Part shown: one piece after another, positions 2,742-53,321 of the stretch
Position numbering within the stretch: position 1 is the first letter of the stretch
Layout of the letters: the number at the start of each line of letters is the position of its first letter
DNA from: Octopus vulgaris
Lineage: Eukaryota
Length of the DNA stretch: 64,000 bases
NCBI GenBank assembly: GCA_951406725.2
Contig: OX597825.1
Coordinates: 55,304,001-55,368,000, forward strand
Reading direction: 5' to 3'
Made by a program: the position numbers and the translations under genes
Notes under the pieces: model-generated
Told to the model about the DNA's origin: nothing
Databases searched by the model: none
Seen by the model: only the letters and a program-made list of their open reading frames with translations

Positions 2742-2840
2742 CTCCATTACACGTGTTTCATTTACTAATAAGAATTACAGAATTTTATATGTTAAATAAA
2801 CATGCAAGAAATTTCCTATTAGAAAATCTTCAGGCAAAAA
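2742..2840 (-). ncRNA. Type-I hammerhead-ribozyme-like motif (Penelope-like type)
   Basis: Minus strand: CTGAAGA (2833-2827), stem II tttctaata/tattagtaaa, GAAAC-ACGT-GTA (2759-2748); stem I decayed. Confidence 0.65.
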
Positions 2841-3074
2841 TAAAAAAGTATATTATATAGATAATAAATACCAAAAAATTTCCACTTTCATGTTTTGTTA
2901 TACAATAACACTGTAAATAATATTTCCATAATTCTCAGTTTTAATATGTATTTAGACTAAAATACAGCAGCAACTGTGACCACATATTGGATTGTAATAA
3001 TAGAATAAGCAGATACATTTCAAGAGAAAACAGCTGGGATTTACCCTAACTACCTGTATTACATACATACACAC

Positions 3075-3123
<49 letters not shown>

Positions 3124-3329
3124 AGTGTGTGTGTGTATTCATTTACACTTTTACTCATTTCAGCCATATGGCTGTGGTCATGTGATATATATACATTTAT
3201 ATATAAAGTACTTACACAAGGCCCCTCAGCGATGACATCAAATCACTCCCTCTATCTTAACTATCACCAGTCACAAGTACTATCCATCATTCTCTGTCTC
3301 TTACATTACTCCTCTATCAGTCACTGTTG

Positions 3330-3378
<49 letters not shown>

Positions 3379-3574
3379 GTTACACTCCCACTTTCATTAC
3401 TCCATCTTCCATCAGCCTGCCTCCTTCACTCTCACTCTTTCTTTTCCTACATGTATATAGCTGCCACATTTGTCTCTCTGACATTACCTCCTCTTTTATT
3501 ACCTTTTCACCCTTCATCATTGTTTCAACTACCAGACTCCCTTTTCTTTCACCCTCACATTCTGGTTCTGTCAG

Positions 3575-5790
3575 AAAATACTCTAAAATACTATTTATGG
3601 AACAAATGATGCTCCACAGAATCAAGAGCAACAATATTTTGGACCTCTGCTCTACAGACAACATACATATGAAAGTGACACCAAAAACATTCTCAGATTA
3701 TATCATGGTAGAATTAAACAATGTGTGATCCAAAAACAATCATAGATACATGCCCTTCAAGAAATGCAAAAACTATTAAGCCCAAACTTCCAAAAATTAA
3801 ACTGGAAATTGATAATGCAAGCCATGTACATTACATTTCTTTGAAAGAGAAGGAGCCAAGAAACAGAAAGACATTATTCTTACAGACAGAGATGTTCTGA
3901 TGAAACAGAAAAAGATTACTAATCATTTAAAATGAATAACTTAAAGACAGTGAAAGGTCCCACTAAAAGAAAAAAGAAAAGAAGAAGGCAGGAAGAGAAA
4001 CCATGGTTACAAAACATTTTTAAATGAATCCAAAAGCTTTCTTTAAATTAGCAAAAGAATCGCCCTCAGTCTATTACAAAGTGGTACCATTATCCCAAAG
4101 AAATAAGTCATTTAGTGCAGACCAAAATGGATGAGTGAAATATTGAATGAACAATTTGAAAGCATTTCATCTCCATGCTAGAAGACTTGTAAATGAATAA
4201 GCCAGATGAGTTCTTTGACACTATAGCTCTACATAGGGAGGTGGCAACCATAATTACATTGACCATAGATGAAAGGAACTTAAATTTAGTAGCAGGCATC
4301 AATGGTTTTTAAATAACTCTCTTAAACAGATGCAAGAAAACTCATTGTTTTCTTGCAAAACCATTGTAGATATTTTTTAGGACTTCCTTGCATGTGGCAA
4401 ACTCGCTAAAAAGAAAGAAGAACCAATAAGCCCAATCGATAAAGGAGGAAGTGGAGCAGATACTAAAAATTACAGATAACTCATCAAACTTCATACATTA
4501 GCAAAGTCATGGAGTGAGTTATCAGAGGAAAGATGATTAGAAGAATTTTTAGACGAAAATGACTTGCTCACAGACATCTGGCACAGCTATTATGGCATTA
4601 TGACTGAGTACTGGTAGAGTAATTCATTCATACAAGAGTGGAGTGGTTGTGATATCTCTCAACTTTACAAAGACCATCAATAAAGCTGATCATGGAATGA
4701 CATGTCATAAACAACTAGAATAGGTACAGAATTTCTGAAAGGGAGAAGTTAGGCAGTTGCAGTCAATGTAGCTCCCTCAGAAAAGATATTAATTTTGGGA
4801 GGAGACACTCAGGGAAACATTTTGGGTCTATTGCGAAATGTGGTGGCTCTCTTGAACATGCCCTTAGTCATACAAACAGCTACTCTCACTAGATTTATTG
4901 ATGATACAAAAATATGACAGACAATCAAGAACTGTGATGAAGTCATGAATCTACAAAGAGATCTTAGTGCAATATACAAATGGGCTGAAGTAAAGAACAT
5001 GCAGTTTAATGTTGCAAAAATTCAAGAACTCAGCTGCAATCTCATGAGGGAAAACAATCCCAGAGCATATTATCAGTGCATGAGGCTGAAAGTTAATATC
5101 AATAATGATGCTTTGTCTGAGGTGGATATTACAAAGATGTAACAATATGCAGGCAAATGGATAGATGAATTCTAGGCTTATTCAGAGTGACAGAACTGGA
5201 AATCATGCTGGTCCTGTGGAAGACATTTGTTTTTAGCTATCTGGACTGTTAGCAAAGTGCAGATAGCTCTGAATGCTCTAACTTAGCAAAGTAATGGAGG
5301 AACTTAAAGCAATTCAATGCTATCAAAACCAAGAATGTTGACTCATTGCAACAAAGGATTAAGAGAGCTGAAAGAATTAAGATCCGTCTTCCGGGTAAAA
5401 AGGCAGGAAACATATGTAGTGATATATACAGAAGATACTGCAAAGTTTCACGCCAAAGTCTGGGATTGAAAGCTACAGCAATCACGGAAATGGATGCTAT
5501 TTCACTGTACTAAAGGTTTCACTCACCTTCTTAGTAGTTAGGTTCTGGGACTGTATCAGTTTAGATCAACAAAACTTTAGTGTATTACCAAAAAAATTAA
5601 GAGCGGAGAGAGAGGATTTATAGAAAACTCTGAGACTTCAGACAAAACTAAGTCACAGCTAGAAATGCATGTGAAGACAGAGGTCTTAAGACTCTTCATT
5701 CATCAGAGACCAACCACAAAGAGAGGATAGTGGAAATGCCAGGAATAATAATGGCAATGCACATTCTAGCATTGCAGCCAATAAGCTGAA
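3575..5790 (+). mobile_element. Decayed CR1-group LINE ORF2 (EN C-terminus plus RT)
   Basis: EQMMLHRIKSNNILDLCSTDN (EN end); PIDKGGSGADTKNYR at ~4432; FIDDTK (YADD-type motif) at ~4894; LQRDLSAIYKWAEVKNMQFN; many stops and frameshifts. Confidence 0.85.
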
Positions 5791-5839
5791 ACAAGCAAAA
5801 CACTAAAAACTATACACACACAGGTATGTATATATACAT

Positions 5840-5872
<33 letters not shown>

Positions 5873-5877
5873 CATAT

Positions 5878-5908
<31 letters not shown>

Positions 5909-7565: not shown

Positions 7566-7810
7566 ATTATTATTATATGAAAAATATAAGCTTATTTTAC
7601 TGGGAATGATGGAAAGTGTCAGCTGTCCACAGCCAGCGGACTAAGGTGACCCTTGGTTTTTGATCATGCTTCAAGAACCCAGTGAAGAATTCTTGCAGTC
7701 CTAAGCAATGTTGATTTTTGTAGGTGTTCTACCTTCACACTCGCCCTGATCTTTTTCCACAGGGGTTCTCTGGTAGTAACACTCCCTAATAATTATGTTT
7801 ACTTGTTTAC
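7566..7810 (-). mobile_element. 3' end of R4/Dong-clade (RLE) LINE
   Basis: Minus strand VKVEHLQKSTLLRTARILHWVLEA* (QKS.LL.TARIL C-terminal motif), short 3' UTR, ends in (AAT)n. Confidence 0.7.
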
Positions 7811-7936
7811 TCCACCTATGTCTTGTAGCATGGCTAGCAGTTGCTGGATTACGACCAGGCCTACTCTGCTGCACATATCATCATCATCATCATCATCACC
7901 ATTATCAACATCATTATTATTATTTTTTTTATCACT

Positions 7937-8372
7937 AAGGCAGCAAGCTGGCAGAATCATTAGCATGCTAGGTAAAATGCTTAGTGGCATTTTGTCCATG
8001 TTTGTGTTCTGAGTTCAAATTCCACCAAGGTTGACTTTGCTTTTTATCCATTCAGGGTCAATGAAAGAAGTACCAGTCGAGCACTGGGGTTGATGTAATC
8101 AACTAGTCCCCTCCTCCACAATTTCAGGTCATGTACCTTTAGCAGAAAGAATTATTAAGGCAGCAAACTAGCAGAATCATTACCTTGTCTTGCAAAATGC
8201 TCAGCAGCATTCCATCCATCTTTACATTCTGAGTTCAAATTCTACCACAGTCAACTTTACCTTTCATCTTTTCAGGGTCGATAAAATAAGTACCAGTTGA
8301 GTACTGGGGTTGATGTAATCAACTAGCCCCCTCCCCTAAAAATTTTAGGCCTTGTGCCTGTAGCAGAAAAGA
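7937..8372 (+). mobile_element. Two tandem copies of tRNA-headed SINE family A (7937-8156, 8157-8372)
   Basis: A-box-like TGGCAGAATC, B-box GAGTTCAAATTCC, core GACTTTGCCTTTCATCC..GGGTCGATAAAATAAGTACCAG, (ATT)n tail; same family recurs about 20 times in the window. Confidence 0.9.
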
Positions 8373-8429: not shown

Positions 8430-9170
8430 AATGGTATGCTCAAAAGTGCTACATCTGGAATCGATGTCCTTGATAGCAAATCACATCTAATTTCCTTGGA
8501 TATTGAGAGCCTATCAAACAATCCTTGCTCTTCTTAACAGAGTAGATTTCTGTATTAATAGTTCTTGTAGTTACTCAGACCTCAGTAAGGAAGCTACCAA
8601 GTGTGTTAACAGTACTTAGGATTACTTTTGCAGAAATCCTCCACAGTCTTTGCATTCCCCTAGCTAAATTTCACAATTTTCTGGGGTTTTTTTTTCACCT
8701 GTTATTAGACAGCTACATTCATATCAGCAGAAACAGCCATTTCTGTGAAGATGCACTCTTTTAACACCTTGTCCCAGATGATAATATCTAGTTGTTTTCC
8801 TTGAATCTCATGGTCAGTCTGTACAATAAAGTCCCATAATATCTTAAACTGGTCATTCTTTGTCATGCTTCCAAGTTGGTGACCGTATCATGTTCAGCTC
8901 ACATCAAAACCTCTTTGATGTAATATATCCCAGTATAATGTTCTGGCTGCATGATCATGTCTCTGTTTATATTTCTTTGCCAAAGAACAAGTAATTATGA
9001 ACACAATGGTCTCATCTTCCTCTTTACACATTCTGCACATAACATTTTTCATTTGTTCATCATGACTGACTTTGAGCAGCCAAAATGAGTCCTTTTCCTT
9101 TCATGAGTTCTCTTTTCTTCAGTCATTACCAAGATTCATCTGCTGTAAAATCCTGCAGATATTGCACTCA
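8430..9170 (-). mobile_element. R4/Dong-clade LINE 3' fragment (zinc knuckle plus RLE endonuclease)
   Basis: Minus strand CRMCKEEDETIVFIITC, YKQRHDHAARTLYWDI, KILWDFIVQTDHEIQGKQLDIII, QKSTLLRRARI; ends at (AAT)n. Confidence 0.85.
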
Positions 9171-9554
9171 CAATTACAAGATTGTGTTTTTAATTCCCAC
9201 ATCTTAGCCAAAATTCTTCATTTCACATTGTTCCGGTTTACTAAGCTGTAACTGGGTAATCCTGCAACAGACTGGCATATCATTCAGGTGGTATGTTGTG
9301 ATCTCAGTCACTTATTCACCATGGAAACCAGGTAACTGTCCCTATGAGCTCAAGGACACAAAACACTAATGTTCAAGGGTTACTTTAACATGGATCATAA
9401 TGAGATATTACACACAATGCAGAGCCATGATTCACAATGACTTTTGTTCAAATCCTACCATGGTCAATTTTGACCTTGTCGTCCTGGGATTCATAAAACA
9501 AAATACTAGTCATGGACATGGGACTGATTTATGCAAATAAGCTCATTCATTCAT

Positions 9555-9900
9555 TGCAGCTGTCGAATTAGTGTTATTATATGGCAGTGAAACATGGACA
9601 CTGACAAAGAAGTTATCAAACAGGCTAAATGGATGTTACACAAGGATGCTGTGAATGGCCCTAAATGTGAAATGGCAGCAATATATGACAAATGAATGCC
9701 TTTATGGAGACCTGCCAAAAGTTTACGAGAAGATCAGGTGAAGACAGCTGCAATTATCTGGTCACTGTATCCAAATTAGTCTTGAGTAACCCACTTCATG
9801 GTGATGAAAGAAGAGGAAAACGTCATCACACATCAACAACTTGATTGCAGACACTGGTCTGGAATGTATCCATGATGTCAAGGCAGTGATGAAGGATCAA
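9555..9900 (+). mobile_element. RTE/RTE-X LINE C-terminal fragment
   Basis: VLLYGSETWTLTKKLSNRLNGCYTRML*MALNVKWQQYMTNECLYGDLPK..IR*RQLQLSGHC. Confidence 0.85.
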
Positions 9901-10131
9901 AAAGTGTGGTGGGTGGACTTTGTTGCTGCAGCCTGGGTTGGAACACAGCCATAGAAAGAAGCATATTCTCCAAACAAAAGAAGATAATTCTGTATGTTTT
10001 GGAAAAATAGATTTCATTAGTGGAAATATAGGAATAATCTATGACCATTGGTACTAGCAACTGATTTTTTTATATGAAATGTTCACTCAGTTTATCCATG
10101 TCAGTGTATATTTATTATTAATAAGTAAGTT

Positions 10132-10345
10132 AAAGTGGTGAATTGGCAGAATCCTTAGCACACTGGACAAAATGCTTTGCAGTATTTCAACTACCTTTAC
10201 ATTCTGAGTTCAAATTCCATCAAGGCTGACTTTGCTTTCATCCTTTTGGGATGGATAAAATAAGTACAAGTGCAGGGGTCAATGTATTTGACTAGCTCTG
10301 TCTCCAAAATTTCAAGCTTTGTGCCTATAGTAGAAAAGATTATTG
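10132..10345 (+). mobile_element. SINE family A copy
   Basis: Same head, B box and core as 7937 copies. Confidence 0.85.
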
Positions 10346-12955: not shown

Positions 12956-13405
12956 CCCTTTTAAGGAGGCGAGCTGGCAGAAATGTTAGTACACCATATG
13001 AAATGCTTAGTGGTATTTCGTCTGTCTTCATATTCTGTGTTCAAATTCTGCCAAAGTCGACTTTGCCTTTCATCCTTTCAGGTCAATAAATTAAGTACCA
13101 CTTGCATACTGGAATTGATATAATCAACTGGCCCCCTCTCCAAAAACTTTGGGCCTTGTGCCTAGAGTAGAAAAGAATATTTAACTCTTTTGATACCAAC
13201 CCGGTTGAAACCACCCTCTCTCTGTAGTACAAATGTCTTGTTTTCATGAGTTTTTAATTAAAATCTTCCACTAACTCATAGTCACAATTTATGTTCCTAA
13301 CACCAGCTTAATAATACCTAAGTTATTTTACTAAATTCTTTTTTATATTTAAAATTAATTGAAAGAAACACAGAACATCTCAAAATGAATACAGCAACAA
13401 AAGGG
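12956..13405. mobile_element. piggyBac-type MITE (TTAA|CCCTTTT...AAAAGGG|TTAA) interrupted by a SINE
   Basis: TTAA at 12952-12955 and 13406-13409; CCCTTTTG/CAAAAGGG termini; related copy at 61757-61977. Confidence 0.75.
12963..13175 (+). mobile_element. Full-length SINE family A with 16-bp TSD
   Basis: TSD aatatttaaccctttt (12947-12962) / aatatttaactctttt (13176-13191). Confidence 0.92.
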
Positions 13406-15908: not shown

Positions 15909-16018
15909 ACAAGGGAGTGCTAAAAAGTTTCTGACTTTGGGTAAAAGAAAATAGAAGAGGATCATTTAATTATGATCTTCTTCAACATGCTCCCCTCTCA
16001 GATTCACACACTTATAAC
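15909..16018 (+). mobile_element. mariner-type terminal fragment
   Basis: CAAGGGAGTGCTAAAAAGTTTCTGACTT resembles mariner TIRs (CGAGGG..CT.AAAAGTT); truncated by SINE. Confidence 0.45.
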
Positions 16019-16019
16019 A

Positions 16020-16857
16020 ACCTCAGTGTTCAACTGGTACTTATTTTATCGACCATGAAAGTGTGAAAGGTAAAGTCGACTTTGGCAGAATTTGAACTCA
16101 GAGCATAGCAATGGGCAAAATATCACTAAGCATTTCATCCAGTGTGTTAACAATTCTGCCAGCTTGCTGCCTTAATAATAATGATGATGATGATGATGAT
16201 GATGATATTTCATGTAAACATTATAAAGAATGGTTTAAAATTTTGGCATAAAGCCAGCAAGATCAGGTGATACTTATTTTATCAACTCTGAAAAGATGAA
16301 AGGCAAAATTGACCTTAGTGGAATTTGAACTCAGAACGTGAAGACAGACAAAATACTGCTAAGTGTTTTGTCCAGCATGCTAACGATTCTGCCAGCTCAC
16401 TGTCTTAATAATAATAATAATGATATTTCATGTAAATGCTATAAATAATCTTTTCTACACTGGACACAAGGCCTGAAATTTTGGGGGAGGGGACCAGTTG
16501 ATTAGAATGACCCCAGTATGTAACTGGTACTTAATTTATCGACCCCAAAAGGATGAAAGGCAATGTCAACCTTGGCAGAATTTGAACTCAGAACATAAAG
16601 ATAGATGAAATACCGCTAAGCATTTCGTCTGGCATGTTAACGTTTCTGCCAGCTCCCCACCTTAAATATTATAAATAATGGTTTAAAATTTTGGTAAAAG
16701 GCCAACAAGATCAGGTGATACTTATTTTATTGACCCCAAAAGGATGAAAGGCAAAGTCGACCCCGGCAGAATTTGAACACAGATTATAAAGCATCAGAAG
16801 AAATGTTACTAAGCATTTTGTCTGATGTGCTAATGTTTATGCCAGCCTCACACCTTA
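16020..16857 (-). mobile_element. Head-to-tail array of four SINE family A copies
   Basis: Copies at ~16020-16173, 16230-16407, 16447-16664, 16680-16857, separated by AAT/GAT repeats; spacer gatatttcatgtaaa duplicated. Confidence 0.9.
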
Positions 16858-17963
16858 ATAACAATAATAATAATTATAATAATAATCCTAATAATTATTA
16901 TTATTGCTACTGTAGGAAAGGGAGAGAAGTGGGTATTTCTTGTTAATTGCAGTGAAATGTTTCATTATTGATGAAACACAATGCAGGGTGGAGGAATTAT
17001 AAAAATCAGGGTAACTACATCAGTTTGTTTTGAGGAATACCATGTCCATTGTTGTTACAGTTAAACCAATCAAAGTGAAGTCAACACATGACAATGGAAC
17101 ATGGGTGAATGAAGTTGATTGGCTTGTCCTTTGTTATTTATACTTCTTTTGCTCCCTTTTTTTTTTTTTGTTTTTCTTTTTTCAATAGGGGTGGAAAGAA
17201 GAGTAAGGAATAAAGCGATGAGATGAGATGAGATGAGAGATGGGATGAGAGAGATGAGTTGGGATAATAAACCATACAACTGATGCGATTCTCTTTGGCA
17301 GTAACCATTATGAACTCTGAAATTCTCCATGTGTGTGTATTTTTTATTTTTTATTTGTGTGTGTATGTGTGTGTGTGCATGTGTGTGTTTGCTGTTTTCA
17401 ATTCTGCAGAACCATTAGTCTTCAAGATTCTGAGTTTAAGGGATTTTTAAAGAATTTAAGGGCTTTTAGCCTAATTACAGTCAGTTTTTGAAATCAATTC
17501 TGTATTAATTGAAGCACCTGATTACTTGATTGAAAACAAAAGAGACAAACAGAAAACAAACACAAGTGAAAGGCATCAAATTTTCATGATTCTCTTCTGT
17601 TTAAATGGCAAATTGGTTTCATTCCTACCAACCCACATCTACCAACCGGAACCTCCACCACACCACTGCTACCAGTGCCACCACCATCACCCTTGCTAAG
17701 TATTGATCCATCAGCATTATGCAGTCTTTATTCTATTATATTTCAGTGATTTTCATTAATATTTTTGAAAGTAAAGATCCACTTATAATTTCCAGTCATG
17801 TCTGACTGATATTTCAGAGTTCTGTCTGTCTATGTCTCTCTCTCTCTACTACTACTACTATGACTCCTCAACTAGCTAACAACGCACCTCAGCACCCTTG
17901 ATGCTCACTCTGAATATACCCTTTCATCATCTCTATTGTTTCTTACCTTACAATGCTCTACAC

Positions 17964-24300: not shown

Positions 24301-25156
24301 CCTGGGTAACAGGAGGTATCATTAATAACACTGAAGCAAAATAACACCAAATATATAGTGCGTGTGTTTTTATTGGCTAAACTGGCAAAATGACCATTCT
24401 GAAATATAACAATATCTGTTTCAACACACGACTTCACATAAAAAATCTTGCACAACAAAAATATATATATATATATGAAGCACTAATTTGCATATTCTAG
24501 TTCTTCTGATTATTTATATATAAGTATATGTGTGAGTGTGTGAGTATATATATACATATATATACACACATACAAACATATATATAATGTATATATATAT
24601 ATATATAATCTTATGATTAAAAGAAATACAAATCTTGTAGATACAGCTACCCAGCATTTCTGGTCAAAATAATAATTTTATTCCACCATTTACCAAATTT
24701 CTGTTTTTTTATTTTGAGATTATCTTTACTCTCTTAGTTGATTAGGTGCATTTCTACTTGCTGAGACACTACCGCATAATACATATATGCATACGAACAC
24801 ATATATATATATACTTATATATTTGAATACATATATACATATATATATATATGCATACATATATATATATACACACACATATATATATGTATATATATAT
24901 ATATGGCACTGAGTCTACAGTGTACCATAGCCAGTGCATGTTTCCCCATTTCTCCATTTCTATCGTGTATTTCAAGACACCTGAGGAATATAGTAAGAAT
25001 GGGTAACTTGGGTGTGTAAGTGGCATGGAGATTTTGGCTTTGAATAAATAAACAAATAAATTTTACAACATGTACTGAATATTTATTTCTCGCGTCTGTA
25101 CATCCTAGAGCACATACATGCAGACAGATCGTGTTTGTGTATGTAAGTATAAATGC

Positions 25157-27280: not shown

Positions 27281-27713
27281 CCCTTTGACTATCAGTACAA
27301 GGCCTAGAATTTTTTAGTGGAGAGGGTTAGCCAATTACATCGACCCCTGTGCACAACTGGTCCTTATTTCATATAAATGAAAGCAAGGTAGACCTCAGAA
27401 GAATTTGAACTCAGAACAGAAAGACAGACAAAATGTTGCTAAGCATTTTGTCCAGTGTGCTAACACTTCTGCCAGCTTTCCCCCTCATTAGTAATAATGG
27501 TTTCAAACTTTGACACAAGGCCAGCAAGTTCAGGGGAGTTGTTAAATTGATTACATCAACCCCAGCATGTAACTGGTGCTTATTTTATTGACTACAAATG
27601 GATGGAAGGCAAAGTCAACCGAGGTAGAATTTGAATTCAGAACATAAAAACTGATGAAATGCTAGTAATCATTTTGCCTTTCAAGTTAACAATTCCACAA
27701 GTTCACTGCCTTC

Positions 27714-27775
<62 letters not shown>

Positions 27776-28620
27776 CCTTTCTACTGGAAGCACAAGGCCT
27801 CAAATTTGAGAGAAAGGATTAAGTCAACTACATCAACCCAGTGTGACACTGATACTTATTTAATCAAAAGCAAAGCTGACCTCAGCAGAATTTGAACTCA
27901 GAATGTAGCGGCAGATGAAATACCTATTTCTTTACTGCCCACAAGGGGCTAAACACAGAGGGGACAAACAAGGATAGACAAACGGATTAAGTCGATTATA
28001 TCGACCCCAGTGCGTAACTGGTACTATTTAATCGACTGGTACTTATTTCATCGACTCCCAAAAGGATGAAAGGCAAAGTTGACTTCGGTGGAATTTGAAC
28101 TCAGAATGTAGCGGCAGATGAAATACCGCTATGCAGTTTCCCTGGCATGCTAACAATTCTGCCAGCTCACCATCTTAATAATAATAACAATGTTGATTAT
28201 TTCTACTCTAGGCACAAGGCTTTGAGAATTTTGGTGGGGAAGTGGGCTAGTTGATTACATCGGCCCTAATGCATAACTGGTACTTATTTCATCGACCCCA
28301 AAAGGATGAAAGGTAAAGTCGTCCTCAGCAGAATTTGAATGCAGAACGTAGAGGCAGACAAAATACCACTAAGCATTTTGCCTGGCATGTTAACGATTCT
28401 GCCAGCTCGCCCCCATAATAATAATAATAATAGTAATAATAATATGATGATGATAATAATAACAACAGTGGTTTCAAGTTTTGGTACAAGGCCAGTAATT
28501 TGGGGAGAGTAATTATACCAACCTGAATACTTAACTGGGACTTATTTTATTCATCCTGAAATGGCAGAATTTGAACTCAGAACATAGAAAGCCGGAAAAA
28601 ATATAGCTAAGTATTTTCTT
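27281..28620 (-). mobile_element. Head-to-tail array of six SINE family A copies
   Basis: Copies ~27281-27486, 27500-27712, 27776-27925, 27926-28176, 28198-28414, 28470-28620, mostly joined by (AAT)n. Confidence 0.9.
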
Positions 28621-30340: not shown

Positions 30341-30430
30341 TCATCTTACACATGTTTCAGAGAAGATTATAGTTGGATTAAGTAGTCTGGGCCAGGTAAG
30401 TTTTCTACATCTTCACTTCATCAGAGTTTC
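30341..30430 (-). ncRNA. Type-I hammerhead-ribozyme-like motif, intact core
   Basis: CTGATGA (30424-30418), stem II agtgaagat/atcttctct (8 of 9 pairs), GAAAC-ATGT-GTA (30358-30347). Confidence 0.7.
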
Positions 30431-33738: not shown

Positions 33739-33780
33739 ATAAACTAGTACTTTTATGTGTTACACAATCATCAGGTTTAT
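33739..33780 (-). ncRNA. Minimal type-I hammerhead-like motif (G12 to A)
   Basis: ataaac-CTGATGA-ttgtgtaacacat-AAAA-GTA-CTA-gtttat: perfect 6-bp stem I, 4-bp stem II, palindromic stem III AGTACT. Confidence 0.65.
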
Positions 33781-33934: not shown

Positions 33935-34804
33935 CACACATGTTAGAATAAATAGACACCCCATAAAACATCGTTTTCTGTTTATTCTAACTCGTAAAGG
34001 TTTATATTTCTTATTAATTGACATTTTATGTTTTAGATTCTATATGTGACTGCTTAATCATGTCATGTACAAAGGAAGCTTTGGAACTGTCTGAATTTCA
34101 AAGAGGCCATATTGTGGGTCATTCTGGCGGTGGATATAGTCAGCATAAAATAGCACAAAACCTTGGGATCCCACTTTCTACAGTTAATAAAGTGATTGTG
34201 CAATTCATCAGAGAGGGGAAGGGGTTCACATCACCTTGTCCAGATCAACCAGGGCCGTTTGACAGGACTCTTCTCTTTGCTAAGAGAAGTGTGGAGAATA
34301 ATCCTCATTTCAAGACCTCTGACATAGCAGAGCAAGTTGATGGCAGTCCCAGAACAGCTGTCAGGTATCTCCACAAATTTGGTTACTATGGCAGAGCAGG
34401 AAGAAGAAAGCCACATCTTTGGCCAGCCAATATGAAACAGGGAAAAAATTGGGCCAGTGAGATGGTAGAGAAGCCATTAGCATTTTGGGTCACAAGTCCA
34501 GATTTGATGTGTTTCCTAACAGTGGTTGAGTGTGGGTTTGGAGACTCTGTGATCAAGAATTTGATGTGAAAAGATTGCAACCAGCAATGAAACACAGCAG
34601 CTATTCTGAAATGGTCTGGGTAACAATTTGGAGCAATGGTTGATCAGAGCTGGTGGAGTATGAGGGAAAGAAAAACTCAAATAAATGTGTCCATATTGCA
34701 GAAAGGACTGCTTCCAAACTTCTCGAGTGGTGAAATGATTATGATTAAAGAAGATTCTCTATTTGTGGAAGATGGGATTCCTTGTCACACTATTAAAATG
34801 ATCC
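33935..34804 (+). mobile_element. Tc1-like DNA transposon, transposase pseudogene (ATG 34060), 3' truncated
   Basis: [32 protein letters not shown] (HTH), [23 protein letters not shown] (QDNAPCH-like); frameshifts. Confidence 0.9.
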
Positions 34805-35179: not shown

Positions 35180-35615
35180 TATATTAAATTAGAGATAAAA
35201 CCACTATTAGGCAAATCAAACAATGAAAAACTTAAGCCAATACATAAAATTAATTAATTTATATTATTTTAAATATATATCAAAAGTATTAAAAGTTTAA
35301 TAAAAGATAATGAGTAAAACACTACGATCGTTTCATGGCTGTCCAATTCATAATAATTCGAGTTATGGTTACAGTCAATCTTCAGGTAATTGAAATATTT
35401 ATCTAAGCGAGGTTTAAACTTTTAATACTTTTGATATATATTTAAAATAATATAAATTAATTTTATGTATTGGCTTAAGTTTTTCATTGTTTGATTTGCC
35501 TAATAGTGATTTTATCTCTAATTTAATATAACATAATAATTTACTATAAAATTGGATTCAATCCTAAATCTGATTTTTCCCTGTAAGTTTGGATTTATTC
35601 CCTAATATTTTATTA
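35180..35615. mobile_element. Foldback element in (TA)n with ~120-bp inverted arms around a hammerhead motif (Penelope-like)
   Basis: 35180-35300 is the reverse complement of 35414-35530 apart from a 4-nt indel and a substitution; TA tracts on both sides. Confidence 0.75.
35316..35391 (-). ncRNA. Type-I hammerhead-ribozyme-like motif, intact core
   Basis: aattac-CTGAAGA (35385-35379)-tgactgt/acagcca stem II-GAAAC-GATC-GTA (35334-35323)-gtgttt. Confidence 0.75.
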
Positions 35616-39030: not shown

Positions 39031-39066
39031 CTTTCTTTTGAAGAGCATAGGCTCAAAACATAAAAG
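39031..39066 (+). ncRNA. Decayed minimal hammerhead-like motif
   Basis: cttt-CTTTTGAA-gagc atag gctc-AAAAC-ATA-aaag: stems I and II intact, core hit by apparent CpG decay. Confidence 0.45.
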
Positions 39067-39397
39067 ACTTTCTCACCTTCCTGAGCATCAAACTAATATA
39101 CCTACTTGCTGTTTATACACCTGTCTTCAACTTCCGTTTTTCTGTAAATTTCAACTATATATATATATATATATATATGGTTCAAATTTACAGAAAACAT
39201 GTGACAGGTGAGGGAACAACATATATATTCAGGAGTGAACATTCCATCTTAAAGATACCATATTTGGTATTAAGAGAATTTTTGTAAGGAGAGATCAGTT
39301 AGTCATATTCTTGCCATATTATTTACCATTTTCATTATTTTAATGCCAACTTTTCCATACTCACATTGGGGGTACAAACACACACATATATACATAT

Positions 39398-43428: not shown

Positions 43429-43870
43429 CAGGGTGTAATGGGTAAATTGTTGCCATTTTATATCTTTAATTTCATGCATGTGCATTGTTTGCTTTTTTTG
43501 TTGACTACACAGTATAGTAGAGTCAGTTGGGCACTGTCTGCAAAGAAAACAGCACCATGATGTAATTCACTCTACCAGAAATTTGGAAACAACATGCTGT
43601 ACTACTTGGCATTTGCACTAGAAGCTCCAATACAAACATTTCAGAGCGTTTGGTGTCAATCTGAGTCCCCAAAGCAAGTACCAAGAGTGATAAAAAGCAA
43701 ACATCCAGTCAACATCATGGTATTTAGAGTGATCACTAGTGATGGTGACATTATGCCTCCATTCATCTTCCCACCAGCCTCAGACTCAACAGAGAGGCCT
43801 TCATCAAGTGCCTGGAGGAGGTAGTGCTGCCCTGGGTCAAAAGGCTGGCTGCTGATAGACCCTATGTTTT
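43429..43870 (+). mobile_element. maT/DD37D-type mariner-superfamily element, left end plus deleted transposase
   Basis: TA|CAGGGTGTAATGGGTAAATTGT TIR; KHPVNIMVFRVITSDGDIMPPFIFP. Confidence 0.8.
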
Positions 43871-44957
43871 GAATGCTGTTTTGAACGCTCCTTTATTTAG
43901 TAGATGAACCACTATTATGGCATAACCCCAGCTGCAACTAGTTGTGTGCTGTCAAGTTCATAAGCATCAGCAGAGGCAGAGACAAATAACAAATACACAC
44001 ACATACACATGCACACATGTGTGTATATATTATACACACACTCACACACACACACACATATATACACAGATACGCATGTACACAGTTATATGACGGGGTT
44101 CTGCAGAATTCCAAATTCCATGGCCAACACTAAACAGTAGTGAGAAACCTGCCCAAGATGCATTGCAATGGAAACAAGCACTAAGTCACTTTGCTGAAGA
44201 ATATACAGTTTTAACACACAGCCATGCATCTCTCTTTCTCTCTCTCTCACTGTGTATGTGTGTGTACATATATATGTATGTGTGTGCATGTACATACAAA
44301 TATGTGTATTTGTGTGCATGTGCATACAAATAATGAGTATATATATATATTTAAACATGGATATTCAGTCCACATATACACCCACAGTTACATTTATATT
44401 GATATGGACAAACACACACACAATATTTTTGTGTGTGCATATATATATACACACATACATGTACACATACAAGTTCTTTTTTAATACTATCATCAAATTG
44501 TTGTAAGTGTTCATTAAAAATAAATTTACTCTCTGTTTATTAAATTTTCATGAAAATATGAAAATTCTTAAAGATGGTTGGAAGGGAAACAATATGGAAC
44601 AGATTTAAAGGACAATAACTACACAAAAGAATAAACCTAATTCGTTACCATGGTTATGTACTGGTTGTAGGAGTAATGGTAGGGAGAGAGAAAGAGAGAG
44701 AGGCAGAGAGTAAGATAATGAGAGAGAGAAAGTGAGAGAGAGAGAGAATATAAGAGAAGGATAAAGAAAAGAGGGAAAGCGAAGGAGAGGAAAGAGAGAA
44801 GAGTGTGGTTAAACGTGAGAGAAACATGGAAAAGAAAATGTAATTGTTATCACTGAGAATTATAATCTTATAGAATATGTCAGGTATAGGAGAAATGTAT
44901 GTGCAAGAAGATATATATACATGTGTGTGTGTGTGTGTGTGTATTTATATATTCATT

Positions 44958-45839: not shown

Positions 45840-47340
45840 AGGTCCTGGTCCTTAGTCATCTTTTATCTCAGGCTCAGGGTCTTAAGGTCAGTTTTGACCA
45901 CTTCATCCCATGTATTTCAGGGTCTCCCCCTTTCACAAGTTCCAGCTACACTGAGCAATCAGCACTTAGCACAGGTGTCCTCATTCATATGCATCATATG
46001 TCCATACCAGCATAGTCCTTTTTCTTGAAGACAACATCTGATTTCTCTTATACCCAGCTACCTTTTATACTAATTCTTTCATCCACATTCACACTGCACA
46101 TTCAATGGAGCATGCTTGCTTTATTTCTCTCCAGTCTTCTCAAGTTATCTGCATCCAAGGTCCATATTTCATTGCCATAAATTATTGCAGTTCTAACACA
46201 AGCATCTTACAATCTGCTCTTCAATGTTAGTGAAAAAATCTTTGTGGCCAATGGTGGTAAGTAGCTCCCTGAACTACTATACTTTCAGGCTAACCACTCC
46301 TCTTACTAATTACATCTCCTAGGTATCAAAAGCAATCAACTACTTCTAATGAGGCATCTGGGCAATTAAGAGATTCACTTCATGGTGTACTCTTCAGTAC
46401 TACTCCAGTGCATCTATCACATATGAAGTTTACATTTTCAGATAGTCTTCCAGTGATTTCATAACATCTTTTGTGTGTCCATAGCTTACATTGAGTACAG
46501 TATATGAAATTCAAGCCAATCTGTTTTCTATATACTGAGCAAGGTCATTTCTCTAAGGGTATCTGGGTTATGTTTTCTTTCCTACTTACTAAAACCCTCA
46601 ATTTCAGATTTAGCTTCCATGCCTGTAATTTCTTCTCTAATTCTTTTGTAGATTCGGCTATGACAACTAGATCATCTGCATCTTGGAGCCCCATGGGCAG
46701 TTCACCTTAAAATCCTCTGTGATGGCTTGTAGGACTATGATGAATAGGAGAGGACTAAGGACTGAACCTTGATGGATTCCTACTATCATGCTGACTCACC
46801 ACTGAAGTCATTATCAGCTTTCACTTCATTTACTGCATCTTTGTACATAGCACTGAACCACCTATGCAAGCCATTCATTTGAACCTAGTTTCCTCAGAGT
46901 CCACCAAATTACTGAACAGGTTACACTGTGAGATGTTTTCTTAAATTCAACAAAAGCCAAGAACAGCAGTTCATTTTTAGCCAAGTATTTCTCTTGCAAT
47001 TGCCTCAGTAGAAAGACTGCATCTGAGGTACCTTTTCCAGGGACAAAGCCAAACTGCATTTCATCCACATTTATTCAGTCTTTCTCTATGTCTTTCATAA
47101 GTTGGTCCAGAAGTTTGATTACTCTATAGTTGCTATGCTACTCTTTAAGGCAACATCTTTGCCCTTATGGCAGTTTTCATAGCAATACTGCTAAGCAAGT
47201 CATCACCTCTGAATCACTTGATTAACTTATTCAGGTGGTAATCTTGTATCCCACTTCCCTAGATATTGTAAGCATCACTGCTGACTATCCTTCATGGAAA
47301 TGCAGCTTTCCTCTTTTCATATCCTTGATTACTTTATCCA
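45840..47340 (-). mobile_element. RTE LINE RT fossil
   Basis: MDEMQFGFVPGKGTSDAVFLLRQLQEKYLAKNELLFLAFVEFKK; GIHQGSVLSPLLFIIV; ADDLV motif; GRP*NTWDEVVKTDL. Confidence 0.92.
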
Positions 47341-49125
47341 CTAATATTTACATTATCTATCTATGACACATACACACACATACATACAAACACACATATA
47401 TATATGTACATATATAACAGTATATAGATGTGTGTGCTTTTTATATATACACAGACACACATATACATGTGCACACAGACACATATATATAAGCACACAA
47501 CATATACATATATATGTATTTATGCATGTGTATTTGTATGTATACATCTGTGTATGTTTGCATGCATGCATGTGCATATATAAATACATTACAAACACAC
47601 TCACACATTTGCACTCACACACACACACAAAGAGAGGGAGAGAGAGAAGGAGGGAGAGGGTGAGAGAGAGAGACACACACATATATAAAAGTATTTTTCA
47701 AATTGCTATATCTGAAAAAGAGAATATCGGTACAAAGAATAAAATGTAAATATTGTAATTATAGTAGAATATATTCCATTCTGTATGAGAGAAAAAGAAC
47801 AGCAGTAGTATGGAGGAAAAAAGAAATATGATAGCTAAGGAATTTAGATGACATAAATATATCAAGAAAATTGTCCGTTCTGTTTGGTGGGACTGAGTTT
47901 TCTTTGTCGTCTTTTGATTTTTGAAAATTCTGTTTCAATATGAAGGCGGAATTATGAAGAACTCCTGTGAAAATTGGCAGGTAGATAGGATGGATTTTGA
48001 AAGGACTGGAATTATAGACATTGCACAGGAAGATACGGAAGAACACAGCCATTAGCTGTTAGCAAATTAAAAATATTGAGACAATCTTGGACGTCAGGAA
48101 GAAGAAAACAAACTTCTTTGCATTTTAAAAGAAATATTTTTATCATTTCATATCCAATGTTGTTATATTTACCAGGATCAGCCTGTTAATGTTTTGGCAG
48201 AATTGTTTGACAACAGCTCAGTCCTGTCTTTGTTACAGCTAACAATCCAACCATGAGCATCATTTGAAAGACTGTTCCACCCATTGATTTCTTTTTATTG
48301 TTCTTTTACTCACTCACATAACTCCTTCATTATCAATCCACTTGATACTGCTAGTCATCAAAGAATACCAAGGTGCCTGATACTACCCACATTTGCATTC
48401 TTTCTTTTCTTCTTTCAATGGTTTCAGTCGTAGGAATGTAGCCATGCTGGAGCACTGTTTTAACTTATATTCTATTGGTTTTGTCATTGTTTTATGGAAG
48501 AGAAATTGTCTTTGATTGAGTTTGTAGCAGCTGATTCAGGATATTTATATTAAAATTTAAAATCATCATCATTTTGATATATCAATAAAAATACTTTTTT
48601 GTCATTTTACATGCCCAATCTAAAAAAACCCAATTATTTTAGAATTTTATTGAAACAATGAAGTGGAGAAATATTTTTAGATAGAAAGGTAGTAGAAGGT
48701 TGAATCTGGTAGGTAGAAGCAAATTTAGGTTCTTAGCTCAGGGACGACAATATGTTACATATTAATTTATTTGTGCAGTCAGTAGAAGTATTGTGACTTG
48801 ACATAACCACATGTATTAGTTTGTAAATGTGAAATATTTATCTCTAATTTAGGGACAAAGTCAGAAATTTTTAAGGATTAGGTTATTAGTCAATTTCAGT
48901 GATCCCTGCACTTGATTAATATTTTATTTCATTAACTGTTAGGGAAAGACGTAAGGTAAATTTGACCATGTAAAAATTTGAACCCAGAACTTAAAGAACT
49001 TGAAGAAATATAGCAAGGCATTTTGTCTGATGCTCAACTGATTCTGTTGACATTTACAACTGCACAGTATTGCACGGCTGTATAGTAATACTGCTAAGTT
49101 GTTCTGTGGGAACACTCTACAGTAC

Positions 49126-49185
49126 AGTGATATCACAATATTGTACTGTGATATCAATATCATAGTACAATATTATGATATCACT
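49126..49185. repeat. 60-bp nested palindrome/hairpin
   Basis: agtgatatcacaatattgtactgtgata / tatcatagtacaatattatgatatcact arms with 2 differences. Confidence 0.8.
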
Positions 49186-50221
49186 ATGTAATATACTATG
49201 AAGTCAATTATATCTATTCTAGAAACAGAGCTGGTGCTGTCTGTGAAAGGATGAAAGACAAGGTTAAGCTCAATGGTAAGGATGTAAATGAAGAGATTGC
49301 TAAGTAGTGCAACACATTTTGCCTCTTACTGGCAAATCTGGCAATGCAAAGCAACAACAATAATGATCATAATAAACCTTTCAACTATAGGTACAAGGCA
49401 GGAAATTTTGAGGGAAGAGGCTAGTCAAATATATCAACTGCAGTAGTGAATTGATGCTTAGTTTATCAAACTGGAAAGGATGAAAAGCAAAGCTGACTAT
49501 GGCAGCATTTGAACTCAGAACAGAATAATAATAATAATTGTTTCTAATTCAGGCAGAAGGTCAGAAATTTGAGAAGAGGAATCAGTCTCCTCACTGAACC
49601 CTTCTTTTATTTTATAGTTTCTAGTCTCTGGAGAGATGAAAGGTTAATTTGACCTCAGTGGGTTTTGAACACAGAAAGTAAAGAGAATAAATACTGCAAG
49701 ACATTCTGTCTGACACTATAGTGACTCTGTCATTCCATGGTAATGATGATGATGACAGAAAAATACGATGTTGATGATAATAATGATTAGGTTGATGAGA
49801 TAATGAGGACAACATCTGTGATGGTGATGATGATGACAATGACACTGATGATGATAGCAATGGAAAAGACAATGGCAATGACAATGACGATAAGGATATT
49901 GATGATAATAATGAGGACAGCATTGATGATGGTGATGATGCTGATGACAAGGATGATAATAACAATAAATGTGAGCGATGATGATGATGGTAATGACAAG
50001 GATGGTGATGGTGATGACCACGGCAACAACAATGACAATGTACATGATGATAATAATAATTCACTCTTACAAATAAATTCTGCCAGCAAGAGCCAGTACA
50101 AAATGACAGCTGAAGGGAGGGATTGAAGTAAATATTATCATTACTAATAATAATAAAGATAACAATATTATATTTATGCATATCTGTTCTCTTTTTCTGT
50201 GTGTGCATGTATATATATATA

Positions 50222-50255
<34 letters not shown>

Positions 50256-51148
50256 TGATTTCAAACCCTATAACAGTTATTTCCAGCTATTGCTTGTAGC
50301 TGAAATTTACTTCAAACACGTAAGTTGTTTTTTCACTTCTTTCTTAATGTGTTTTTTTTCCCTTTTTCAAAAAGTATTTACTTTATTATATTTTTGCCGG
50401 TTTTATTTCGCATTCTAAGAATGAATTTCTCCTGTGGGCAGAGTGAAGTTTTCTCTCTATGTTTTGTTGTGCATCTGTGCAGCAACAGGTCACGTTATGC
50501 AACTAGTATGTGTGCAAAGGAAATTATATTCTGTGCACATCAAAGTAAAGGAGTAAATGCATGCAACAGTTCTTTTTTTTATTTCCTTTTATTATATTTT
50601 TTTGTTCCGTTTTTTTTTTTCTACTTTGGAATAGGGATATTATCTGCTACCTGGTGGTAACAAATGGACAAATTTACCATTTCTTTTGTTTTCAATATGC
50701 TCTTTCTCCAAAATGTAAAATGTACAACCACCTGACGCCATGCACTATCTACAATGCATGCACACACACACACACACAAACTTACACATGTGTAAATGTA
50801 TACTCATACATACATATTTTTATGTATATATGTGTGTATATATATATATATATATAGTACACACACATATATATGTAACATCCTGCTTTTAGGTTTACTC
50901 AGAGTAATAGAAGTGGTGGTCACAGAGGAGTGACAGACATGATAAAACACCAAAGCTAAATATTCTAGAGTATTTAGCTTCACCTCCGCAGGGTCAATAA
51001 ATTGTTATTTGATGCCCAACTCGCATTCTTTCCAGCAGTCAAAGGGTCATAGGCCAATTCTGCCATTCATCCATTGAGAGAGTGATAAACTGTAATAAAC
51101 TGAGTTTATTTCATTTAAATTCATGCAGTCTAAGGTATATATATATAC

Positions 51149-51183
<35 letters not shown>

Positions 51184-51238
51184 TGTATATGTACAGAGGG
51201 CAATGGGTAGATATAGACATATATGTATATTTATATAT

Positions 51239-51573
51239 AGAGTCTGATGGGTAAGGTGTTGCTATTTTATATCTTTAATTTCGGGCATGTGCATTGTTTG
51301 TTTTCAATTTTGCGAACTACACAGTATGGTAGCGTCAGTTGGACACTGTGAGAAAACAGCACCATTGTGCAATTCACTCTGCCAGAAATTTGGAAACAAC
51401 ATGCTGTACTGCTTGGGATTTACACTGGAAACTCCAAAACAATCATTTCAGAATGTTTGGGTGTCAATCTGAGGACATGTACTAAGAGTGATAAAAATCA
51501 TCTGTTAAAATGAGATGTCAGTGTTGTATTCATATTTGTGTAATTTAGACGACAGTTTATTCACCGCACCCTG
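51239..51573 (+). mobile_element. Internally deleted maT-type element (both ends present)
   Basis: Left part matches 43429-43665; right end TTATTCACCGCACCCTG|TA matches 55500-55519. Confidence 0.8.
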
Positions 51574-51669
51574 TATATATCAATCTAGCTGTGTGTGTAC
51601 AATGTACTGTTCCATGACGGTAAGACCAGCAAAAAAAAGACTCCATCTGGTGAGAGGTAAATTATATAT

Positions 51670-51863
51670 AATAGACATAATACTAATAGTTTCATATGTT
51701 GAGAAATGCCTCAAACATATTCATCGGGCACAAACCACATACCATAATGTACTAGTTCAATTTTTTTGTTTGTTATGATATGTGTTTTGTACCTGATGAA
51801 TTATTTCTTGACATATGAAACTATTAGTAGCAGTAGCACATAAAAACATGTACTGTGTCTATT
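51670..51863. mobile_element. Foldback element with two opposed hammerhead-like motifs
   Basis: 51670-51747 is an inverted copy of 51773-51863; + motif CTGATGA 51793-99..GAAAC-TATTA-GTA 51817-29; - motif CCGATGA 51727-21 with stem II atatgtt/aacatat. Confidence 0.75.
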
Positions 51864-52220
51864 GAATATATATATATTTGTAAAATCTATTTGCAAACTA
51901 AACGCGGTGGTCCCATAGAGGATAATGTTATTGTTGCTCTTAGCCCCAGGAAGATATCTCCTCCAGCCGGCTAATGACACATTGTCTGTGTCCAATTAGT
52001 ATTTATGAGAGGAGGTCATATAATACATATACATATATATTTATATATATAATATACATATGTACACACATACATATATGTTAATATATTTATACATAAT
52101 ATATATATGTACGCACATACATGTGTATACATATATATACATATAATAATATAAATAATATATATATACACACATGCATCTATGGGTACAGGATGTCTCC
52201 AACATGAAATACAAAACCAA

Positions 52221-52383
52221 ATGAGTTCAATACACAAACAATGAAAGAAACAAATGGAAAACAAATTGAATGACAATGCTCAAAATGAGAAGATGGACAG
52301 CCGACAAGTGATGAAGGGTTGTTCTTTATGTTACTTGTCCTGTTTTCCATTTGTTTCTCTCATTGTTTGTGTATTGAACTCAT
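52221..52383. repeat. Foldback with 43-bp arms next to (TA)n
   Basis: 52221-52263 is the reverse complement of 52341-52383 with 1 mismatch. Confidence 0.88.
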
Positions 52384-52466
52384 ATATATATATGCATATG
52401 TATGTGTGTTTATATATATATATATATATATACATATGCATATGTATGTATATATATATATATATA

Positions 52467-52508
<42 letters not shown>

Positions 52509-52697
52509 TATGTATGTATATATATATATAAGAGAGTAACCACTATGTGGTCGACTCTAGCACTAAAAATAGATCTGCTAGGTTTCAATCATATCAAAGG
52601 GAAATGGAATTTAATTAAATTTAAAATATTCAATCAAAATTTACATTTCCAGTGGTCTAACGTGCAACAAAATTAGTTAAGAAGACTATGTATTAGT

Positions 52698-53317
52698 TAT
52701 ACGATATAGTGCATATTTATACACATAAGGAATCCACTTAGGGTGAGATTCAACACATTATAGAAACACAAAAATAACGGATAAAATTCGACAGGAATAA
52801 ATTTGGAAATGAAAAACATTTACCATCTCGTACCCCTGACCAAATTGGTTTCTGATCTTCTTTTAGCAAGTCGGGGGAACTCGCAAGGTCCGATCTTTTC
52901 AGCGAGGTCCAACCTGGGGTTAAAACATATAAGACAGAAGACAAGCATTGCTACCTGTCCGTTTATGAATCTAACTTTTCAAATTTTTCTGCGTAATCGC
53001 AGAACTGCAGGACTGCGATTACGCAGAAAAATTTGAAAAGTTAGATTGTATAAACAGGAGACAGGTAGCAGTGCTTGTCTTCTGTCTTATATGTTTTAAC
53101 CCCAGGTTGGACCTCGCCGAAAAGATCAGACCTTGCGAGTTCCCCCGACTTGCTAAAAGAAGATCAGAAACCAATTTGGTCCGGGGTACGAGATGGTAAA
53201 TGTTTTTCATTTCCAAATTTATTCCTGTCGAATTTTATCCGTTATTTTTGTGTTTCTATAATGTGTTGAATCTCACCCTAAGTGGATTCCTTATGTGTAT
53301 AAATATGCACTATATCG

Positions 53318-53321
<4 letters not shown>
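52698..53321. mobile_element. ~620-bp near-perfect inverted repeat (10-nt loop) carrying two hammerhead-like motifs
   Basis: 52698-53002 is the reverse complement of 53013-53321; loop aactgcagga; mirrored ORF pairs in the ORF track; TA tracts at ~52530 and 53321. Confidence 0.95.

What the first reader, a model, noticed from the sequence alone, without database searches (positions are those of the whole stretch)
2742..53321. Recurrent hammerhead-ribozyme motifs in ORF-less, TA-associated foldback elements: a candidate Penelope-like/retrozyme system
Seen: type-I hammerhead layouts at 2742-2840(-), 30341-30430(-), 33739-33780(-), 35316-35391(-), 39031-39066(+), the pair 51676-51733(-)/51786-51840(+) and the variant pair 52832-52908(-)/53111-53187(+). 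Stem sequences look unrelated between loci, yet the core order CTGANGA-stem II-GAAA-stem III-NTH is kept. Stem III is short and mostly palindromic (ACACGTGT, ACGATCGT, AGTACT). Most sit in inverted repeats beside (TA)n. Established: minimal type-I hammerheads with palindromic stem III that act as dimers mark Penelope-like retroelements and non-autonomous retrozymes, and PLE insertions often carry inverted terminal segments. Inference: several distinct non-autonomous PLE families populate this genome at about one locus per 10 kb here. I found no PLE RT or GIY-YIG ORF in the window.
Basis: partly seen in the sequence, partly recalled or inferred. Interest (0 to 1): 0.8.

Follow-up and report, generated by a model that had tools for sequence, protein, structure and literature searches.

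The report
Decayed Penelope retroelement tails with hammerheads
Most of the hammerhead-ribozyme motifs are real but each carries a defect, and they are likely the broken tail ends of several Penelope-like jumping genes that inserted beside TA repeats, a known kind of genomic debris rather than a new ribozyme system.

Summary
The nine motifs lie at the stated coordinates and form seven insertions. A generic type-I descriptor finds none intact and no excess over shuffles. A Penelope-type descriptor, written after seeing the loci, recovers five (2742, 30341, 33739, 35316, 51676) against 0.17 per shuffle, 0 of 200 shuffles as high. 51786 is the inverted sister of 51676. For 52832/53111, public contigs of the family carry the missing G8 and restore helix I. 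39031 stays doubtful. Six of seven insertions have (TA)n within 160 nt downstream (background about 10%). Three show two 5'-truncated copies joined head to head, two of them with a one-sided extension, the published insertion layout of Penelope-like elements (PLEs). For the one family tested, other copies run on past the pivot, so it is no fixed foldback element. Layout and TA preference best match the Hydra clade, but no RT or GIY-YIG ORF was found, so clade membership is untested. Retrozyme membership fails: no tandem units. Small oddities: a family-level U4C core, extensions of 80-110 nt, and a young insertion whose two arms share a G8 deletion.

The parts
2742..2840 (-). Hammerhead remnant: both core boxes intact, long helix II with T.T at its foot, palindromic 8-nt helix III, helix I closing pair broken; no inverted arm found
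   Evidence: (score 14)
30341..30430 (-). Hammerhead remnant: core intact, helix II 8 of 9 pairs by eye, helix I 3 of 6; (TA)24 run 45 nt downstream
   Evidence: (score 11)
33739..33780 (-). Compact hammerhead remnant: helix I 6 of 6, T.T foot plus 4-bp helix II, G12>A, 6-nt palindromic helix III; (TA)n 17 nt downstream
   Evidence: (score 12)
35184..35614 (.). Head-to-head insertion: long arm (minus strand, from about 35413) carries the hammerhead and ends in (TA)n; short inverted arm 35414-35526 (96% alike) lacks it and runs on for about 80 nt more before another (TA)n
35316..35391 (-). Hammerhead remnant in the loop of that hairpin: core intact, T.T foot, palindromic 8-nt helix III, mismatches in helices I and II; starts 22 nt after the pivot
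   Evidence: (score 14)
39031..39066 (+). Doubtful minimal hammerhead: 4-bp helix I, bulged A, 4-bp helix II starting G-C, but three core mismatches; (TA)12 90 nt downstream at the centre of a tail-to-tail inverted repeat (39138-39197)
   Evidence: not recovered
51663..51870 (.). Older head-to-head insertion, arms about 51663-51747 and 51773-51870, 25-nt spacer; both hammerheads point outward
51676..51733 (-). Hammerhead remnant, C at core position 4, strong helix II, 3' strand of helix I lost with a deletion of about 24 nt
   Evidence: (score 11)
51786..51840 (+). Sister copy: core intact, 10 nt missing from helix II, short duplication after the cleavage site; its downstream GCACA is complementary to the TGTGC helix I strand of the 51676 copy
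   Evidence: read by eye
52587..53321 (.). Young head-to-head insertion: palindrome 52698-53321 (arms 98% complementary over 262 nt), pivot near 53009; the left arm runs on about 110 nt to 52587 (165 nt to the (TA)n at 52530), the right arm ends in (TA)n
52832..52908 (-). Hammerhead lacking G8 (left arm); family contigs carry the G and restore the helix I closing pair
53111..53187 (+). Hammerhead lacking G8, C at position 4, helix I 6 of 6 (right arm)

Best explanation
The motifs are decayed type-I hammerheads that likely mark the 3' ends of at least six different endonuclease-bearing Penelope-like retrotransposon (PLE) families, left behind as short, likely dead, 5'-truncated insertions next to TA microsatellites. 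Inferred mechanism: the RT/GIY-YIG protein of a full-length element elsewhere nicks AT-rich DNA, primes reverse transcription near the 3' end of the element RNA and usually stops after a few hundred bases, at or shortly past the hammerhead. Priming on both DNA strands from two nearby start sites would give two truncated copies joined at their 5' ends, one with an extra 'tail'; this would be the 'foldback'. The self-complementary helix III fits dimer-dependent cleavage in the tandem precursor RNA of the parent element, not in these copies. After insertion the copies drifted. Shown here: motifs, defects, outward polarity, unequal arms, TA association, and for one family multi-copy presence, restoration of G8 and continuation past the pivot. 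Inferred: the parent ORF, the clade (Hydra is the best match), the priming mechanism and inactivity.
For: Descriptor excess 5 vs 0.17, 0 of 200 shuffles; only 6 of 120 phage loci preselected for both core boxes reach the same score. (TA)6+ within 160 nt downstream in 6 of 7 insertions vs 9.6% background, P about 2e-5; 5 of 7 for (TA)8+. All five motifs in head-to-head insertions point outward from the pivot. Contigs of four public runs (488, 648, 368, 478 laid): an inserted base that restores G8 in 1, 2 and 4 contigs of X2, X3, X5 (depth 408 of 435, 133 of 266, 101 of 169 set against the depth at neighbouring 52901); 52837 majority letter restores the helix I closing pair; two helix III length variants (deletion at 52842, insertion behind 52843) both give perfect palindromes; loose ends before 53009 (5 contigs in X1, 6 in X5) show other sequence upstream of the pivot; opposite-strand joints at three other places; 13 contigs of X2 end in (TA)n near 52587. 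Published layout matches: 5'-truncation, inverted 5'-truncated copy and one-sided tail (PMC8557442); opposite-strand min-HHR pairs 100-700 bp apart and mostly single motifs from truncated PLEs (PMC4209133); Hydra-clade table: T.T at the foot of helix II in 14 of 26 rows, helix III always AC...GT, the helix III of 51676/51786 identical to two rows, (TA)n preference in 26 of 27 families; AT-rich nicking, both strands extended, two RT start sites giving the tail (PMC11167929).
Against: No PLE ORF or remnant found, so the link rests on non-coding anatomy. Generic descriptor and Rfam show nothing; the significant descriptor was not blind. Only one family of seven was tested on outside copies; in run X1 no G8-bearing contig was listed, G8-less contigs exist in X2 (record 16), and a helix III variant that weakens the palindrome occurs in 3 contigs of X5. 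The family form still has C at position 4. Three insertions have no inverted arm and 39031 has a tail-to-tail repeat instead. Extensions of 80-110 nt exceed the published 30-40 bp tail. Six short window motifs found no match in the supplement that holds the published Octopus PLE consensus sequences. A U.U pair at the foot of helix II also occurs in an axolotl retrozyme (PMC7229834), so it does not diagnose the Hydra clade.
Confidence: 0.8

Rival explanations
1. Dedicated non-autonomous PLE derivatives or animal retrozymes: short ORF-less units that are transcribed, self-cleave as dimers, circularise and are mobilised in trans; the window copies would be their solo offspring.
For: No ORF at any locus; multi-copy in four organisms' runs; solo retrozyme monomers are described and retrozymes are proposed to derive from pLTRs (10.64898/2026.07.22.740005).
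Against: No hammerhead in a tandem unit (46 rows); paired motifs on opposite strands; every copy has a defect; summed contig depth falls roughly tenfold from the 3' part to the part upstream of the core, as for 5' truncation (weak hint); head-to-head plus tail is the PLE insertion layout.
Confidence: 0.1
2. Several of the motifs are chance look-alikes in AT-rich, repeat-rich DNA, picked by eye.
For: Generic descriptor not enriched; loosest PLE setting not significant, 23 of 200; no Rfam hit; folding z-scores unremarkable; 39031 needs three core mismatches.
Against: Five loci at score 11 or more vs 0.17; downstream TA bias; family variants restore G8 and keep helix III palindromic; the two 51676/51786 copies complement each other's defects. 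Chance remains a fair reading for 39031 alone (about even odds).
Confidence: 0.05
3. The palindromes are MITE/foldback DNA transposons with long terminal inverted repeats and TA target sites that captured hammerhead-like sequence.
For: Near-perfect 624-nt palindrome ending at TA; Tc1-type transposase remnants occur in the window.
Against: Arms are unequal, with one-sided extensions; other copies do not share the pivot and invert at other places; three loci have no inverted repeat.
Confidence: 0.05

Closest known systems
Hydra-clade EN+ Penelope-like elements, including Hydra-1_Obim of Octopus bimaculoides (Craig et al. 2021, PMC8557442; passages, section 11, Files S1 and S2 seen)
   Same: Type-I hammerhead roughly 60-200 nt from the 3' end, mismatch at the foot of helix II, 3-4 bp self-complementary AC...GT helix III, (TA)n targets, inverted 5'-truncated copy.
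   Different: No ORF seen here; the window families do not match the published consensus by six short motifs; helix II loops up to about 50 nt; one family with C at core position 4; extensions of 80-110 nt.
Minimal hammerheads of metazoan PLEs (Cervera and De la Pena 2014, PMC4209133; main text seen)
   Same: Many unrelated families per genome, mostly single motifs from truncated PLEs, opposite-strand pairs close together, palindromic helix III region.
   Different: Most window motifs have a real 3-5 bp helix III and lack the G10.1-C11.1 pair; only doubtful 39031 has the minimal layout with bulge and G-C pair.
Poseidon element of Anolis carolinensis (Frangieh et al. 2024, PMC11167929; abstract, main text and part of methods seen)
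   Same: AT-rich targets, copying on both strands, one-sided tail; hammerhead mutants still insert in vitro.
   Different: Tail 30-40 bp there; mechanism here is inferred only.
Animal non-LTR retrozymes (Cervera and De la Pena 2020, PMC7229834, passages; Li et al. 2026, 10.64898/2026.07.22.740005, first two of five parts)
   Same: ORF-less, type-I hammerhead, PLE-related.
   Different: Defined by head-to-tail 150-450 bp units with a complete ribozyme in consecutive units and circular RNA; none of this is present here.

Membership tests
Functional type-I hammerhead ribozyme | Intact core with paired helices I, II and III in the genomic copy | tested here: not met
   0 of 9 under the strict descriptor; defects listed; 2742, 30341, 35316, 51786 keep both boxes but have helix defects
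Functional type-I hammerhead ribozyme | Family form restores core and helices | tested here: inconclusive
   One family of seven tested: G8 and helix I restored in 3 of 4 runs, C4 remains; 51676/51786 complement each other
Functional type-I hammerhead ribozyme | Self-cleavage at the predicted triplet | not testable with these tools
   needs an in vitro assay
EN+ Penelope-like element | ORF with telomerase-like RT and GIY-YIG endonuclease linked to the repeat | tested here: inconclusive
   none in the window (low sensitivity, a visible LINE RT remnant scores only E 0.057); no genome held; the sequence upstream of the pivot in other copies is seen for 30 letters only
EN+ Penelope-like element | Type-I hammerhead near the 3' end, in sense | tested here: met
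EN+ Penelope-like element | 5'-truncated copies, inverted copy joined at the 5' end, one-sided tail | tested here: met
   head-to-head in 3 of 7 insertions, one-sided extension in 2; pivot not shared by other copies
Hydra clade of PLEs | Protein motifs (RWK, DKT, CxCX5C linker, no CCHH) and RT phylogeny | not testable with these tools
   no protein available
Hydra clade of PLEs | (TA)n insertion preference and Hydra-type hammerhead layout | tested here: met
   6 of 7 insertions; T.T foot in 3 motifs; AC...GT helix III in 5 of 6 supported families; neither feature is exclusive to the clade
Animal non-LTR retrozymes | Head-to-tail tandem units with a complete hammerhead in two or more consecutive units | tested here: not met
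   no direct repeat between motifs
Animal non-LTR retrozymes | Expression as small circular RNA | not testable with these tools
   only DNA-type contigs were laid
MITE/foldback DNA transposon | Equal terminal inverted repeats and an internal structure shared among copies | tested here: not met
   unequal arms; loose ends at the pivot and other inversion joints

The most novel reading that the evidence does not exclude
The 52587-53321 family is a recently mobile PLE whose hammerhead has a natural U4C core and a self-complementary helix III that changed length while staying palindromic, and this young insertion was copied from an RNA whose ribozyme had already lost G8. That would be in vivo evidence that PLE transposition does not need cleavage in cis while selection still keeps the dimer helix, with RT start sites 80-110 nt apart instead of 30-40. 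Gene conversion between the arms is the rival for the shared deletion.
Probability: 0.3. Interest if true: 0.45.

Novelty: new member of a known kind. Interest (0 to 1): 0.22.

Why it matters
As it stands it adds a few uncatalogued PLE families and shows that decayed hammerheads are a usable tag for PLE debris that Rfam misses. What hammerheads do for PLEs is an open question; a genome with about one tagged insertion per 10 kb offers material to test whether 5' ends pile up at the ribozyme and whether dead cores still transpose. It is not evidence of a new ribozyme or circular-RNA system.

Tried and rejected
No whole genome is held, so no genome-wide scan or consensus was possible. Rfam whole-window search by E-value listed 150 of 397 rows, all microRNA models on microsatellites; none at gathering score; no hammerhead family at four loci. 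Six-frame scans of long recoded stretches did not run; stop-free segments were scanned instead (segments under 42 aa or of low complexity were left out). Two scans of metagenome contigs for family motifs found 0. A scan of viral contigs with the generic core pattern gave 120 loci, used only as a control. Sequencing-run search for 52600-53320: 20 holders in 11 studies, best share 0.41, no RNA holder listed; small shares not used. Depth is no copy number and is bumpy at variant sites; a sharp drop exactly at the cleavage site could not be shown. The extra descriptor hits at 2182-2247, 24325-24422 and 61500-61572 are within shuffle range and were dropped. A Helitron-helicase reading of 2400-2700 (recalled motif) found no Pfam support. 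Earlier-findings look-ups by place, by sequence and by two word sets were empty. Searches for cephalopod hammerheads in print returned only PMC8557442 as relevant; the 2026 Octopus vulgaris repeat paper has no occurrence of 'hammerhead' or 'ribozyme' in its main text (PMC13282606, passages). Supplements of PMC4209133 and of the bioRxiv preprint were not seen and could hold related motifs.
Full report
Setting. The window is AT-rich (GC 0.30-0.41), full of microsatellites and without long genuine ORFs. It holds a dispersed short repeat family, a Tc1-type transposase remnant at 34018-34566 and a LINE remnant with RT and PHD matches near 46400-46800. It looks to me like octopus DNA; that label is recalled and comes from no call. 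No whole genome is held.

Observation. All nine motifs read as described and belong to seven insertions. A strict generic type-I descriptor finds none; with one core mismatch it finds 4 against a shuffle mean of 1.96, 3 of 25 shuffles as high. Rfam finds no hammerhead and no motif folds better than its shuffles. The published table of Hydra-clade PLE hammerheads (PMC8557442 File S2) shows why a generic descriptor fails: 14 of 26 rows have a T.T mismatch at the foot of helix II and all have a 3-4 bp self-complementary helix III. A descriptor that allows for this, written after I had seen the loci, gives 5 hits at score 11 or more (2742, 30341, 33739, 35316, 51676) against 0.17 per shuffle, with 0 of 200 block shuffles as high; its loosest setting is not significant, 7 against 4.01. 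Among 120 phage loci chosen for having both core boxes, 6 reach that score. Every window copy has a defect in core or helices.

The four motifs not recovered. 51786 is the inverted sister of 51676; each has lost what the other keeps, and the 5' helix I strand of one (TGTGC) is complementary to the GCACA downstream of the other (by eye). For 52832/53111 I laid contigs of four public runs on 52532-53050 (488, 648, 368 and 478 contigs laid). An inserted base that supplies G8 appears in 1, 2 and 4 contigs of runs X2, X3 and X5, with depth 408, 133 and 101 against 435, 266 and 169 at neighbouring 52901; none was listed in X1. The majority letter at 52837 restores the closing pair of helix I. Two length variants of helix III both yield perfect palindromes; a third, in 3 contigs of X5, weakens it. 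The majority letter at 52901 puts C at core position 4; a natural U4C variant with reduced activity is known from a viroid (PMC3088659, passages). So this pair is a real hammerhead family, and the window copies lack G8 in both arms. 39031 needs three core mismatches and stays doubtful.

Anatomy. Six of seven insertions have a (TA)6+ run within 160 nt downstream of the motif against 9.6% of random positions (P about 2e-5, giving two-armed loci two chances; 5 of 7 for (TA)8+). Three insertions are head-to-head pairs with all five motifs pointing outward: 35184-35614 (arms 96% alike, the arm without the ribozyme about 80 nt longer at its outer end), 51663-51870 and 52587-53321 (arms 98% complementary, left arm about 110 nt longer). 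39031 has a tail-to-tail repeat around (TA)12 instead; 2742, 30341 and 33739 have no second arm. In other copies of the 52587 family the sequence runs on past the pivot with different letters (5 contigs in X1, 6 in X5), inversions occur at three other places, and 13 contigs of X2 end in (TA)n near 52587 (24 of 320 loose-end rows were shown). The fold-back is therefore a property of single insertions. Pivots lie 22 nt (35316), about 14-40 nt (51676/51786) and about 100 nt (52832) upstream of the ribozyme; this echoes earlier notes on other genomes but is biased, since only copies that reach the ribozyme are seen.

Mechanism. Published PLE insertions are 5'-truncated, often carry an inverted 5'-truncated copy at the 5' end and a tail at one end (PMC8557442); opposite-strand minimal hammerheads 100-700 bp apart and single motifs from truncated PLEs are described (PMC4209133). 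In vitro, a lizard PLE protein nicks AT-rich DNA, extends both strands, starts reverse transcription at two nearby internal sites that delimit the tail, and inserts hammerhead-dead RNA as well as wild type (PMC11167929). I infer the same origin here. The paired motifs lie on opposite strands, so one transcript holds a single sense copy, predicted to be buried in the long hairpin at 51676/51786 and 52832/53111 and misfolded in the hairpin loop at 35316; cis dimers are not available.

Membership. It works like the 3' debris of an EN+ PLE, most like the Hydra clade (26 of 27 families prefer (TA)n, and an Octopus member is listed). The defining ORF was not found among 346 stop-free segments, a weak test, so neither PLE nor Hydra membership is proven, and six short window motifs match nothing in that supplement. 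Retrozyme membership fails on the tandem criterion. A MITE reading fails on unequal arms and unshared pivots.

Novelty and score. The kind of object is known, and earlier reports of this scan describe the same fold-back scars in other genomes (AI notes, not support). The families appear uncatalogued in the papers searched. Points worth keeping are the family-level U4C core, the long one-sided extensions and the shared G8 deletion in a young insertion. Interest 0.22.

Noticed in passing
window:34018-34566 (+): 183-aa stop-free Tc1/mariner transposase N-terminal remnant (HTH_23 E 3e-8, HTH_Tnp_Tc3_2 E 3.5e-6); further transposase-like pieces by eye near 43560-43900 and 54780-55390, which share DNA similarity.
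   Followed up: partly
window:45300-47100 (-): Decayed LINE with a weak RVT_1 match (46670-46795) and a PHD finger (46383-46544, E 2e-7); RTE-type by recalled motifs.
   Followed up: partly
window:3700-5700 (+), 8500-9200 (-), 9400-9800 (+): Further decayed LINE coding remnants seen by eye in six-frame translations; RVT_1 only E 0.057 near 4900-5030.
   Followed up: partly
window:7876-8390, 10112-10344, 13040-13176, 15995-16883, 27300-28617, 48945-49541, 54084-54291, 59001-59194: Abundant dispersed repeat of roughly 150-230 nt, more than 15 copies at 65-88% identity, often in clusters and often beside (AAT)n; SINE-like by recall.
   Followed up: no
window:29282-29431: 150-nt element with 42-nt terminal inverted repeats (93%) directly after a (TA)n run, no hammerhead found; MITE-like.
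   Followed up: no
window:2400-2700 (+): Frame with an FFIDKPGGSKKSFLY word resembling a Pif1/Helitron helicase Walker A (recalled), just downstream of the 2742 motif; no Pfam support.
   Followed up: partly
window:52532-52587: 56 nt between the family's common end and the (TA)n run; contigs that cover it continue with other sequence, so it may be the end of a second TA-associated repeat.
   Followed up: partly
window:39138-39240: Diverged inverted copy meeting the 39031 downstream segment tail to tail across (TA)12, the opposite geometry to the other three inverted loci.
   Followed up: partly
window:32672-33234: Diverged 52-nt inverted repeat (83%) about 460 nt apart, no hammerhead found.
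   Followed up: no
L019 (around 905-950): Viral contig with both hammerhead core boxes, paired helix II and a 3-bp helix III with tetraloop; possibly a genuine phage hammerhead.
   Followed up: no
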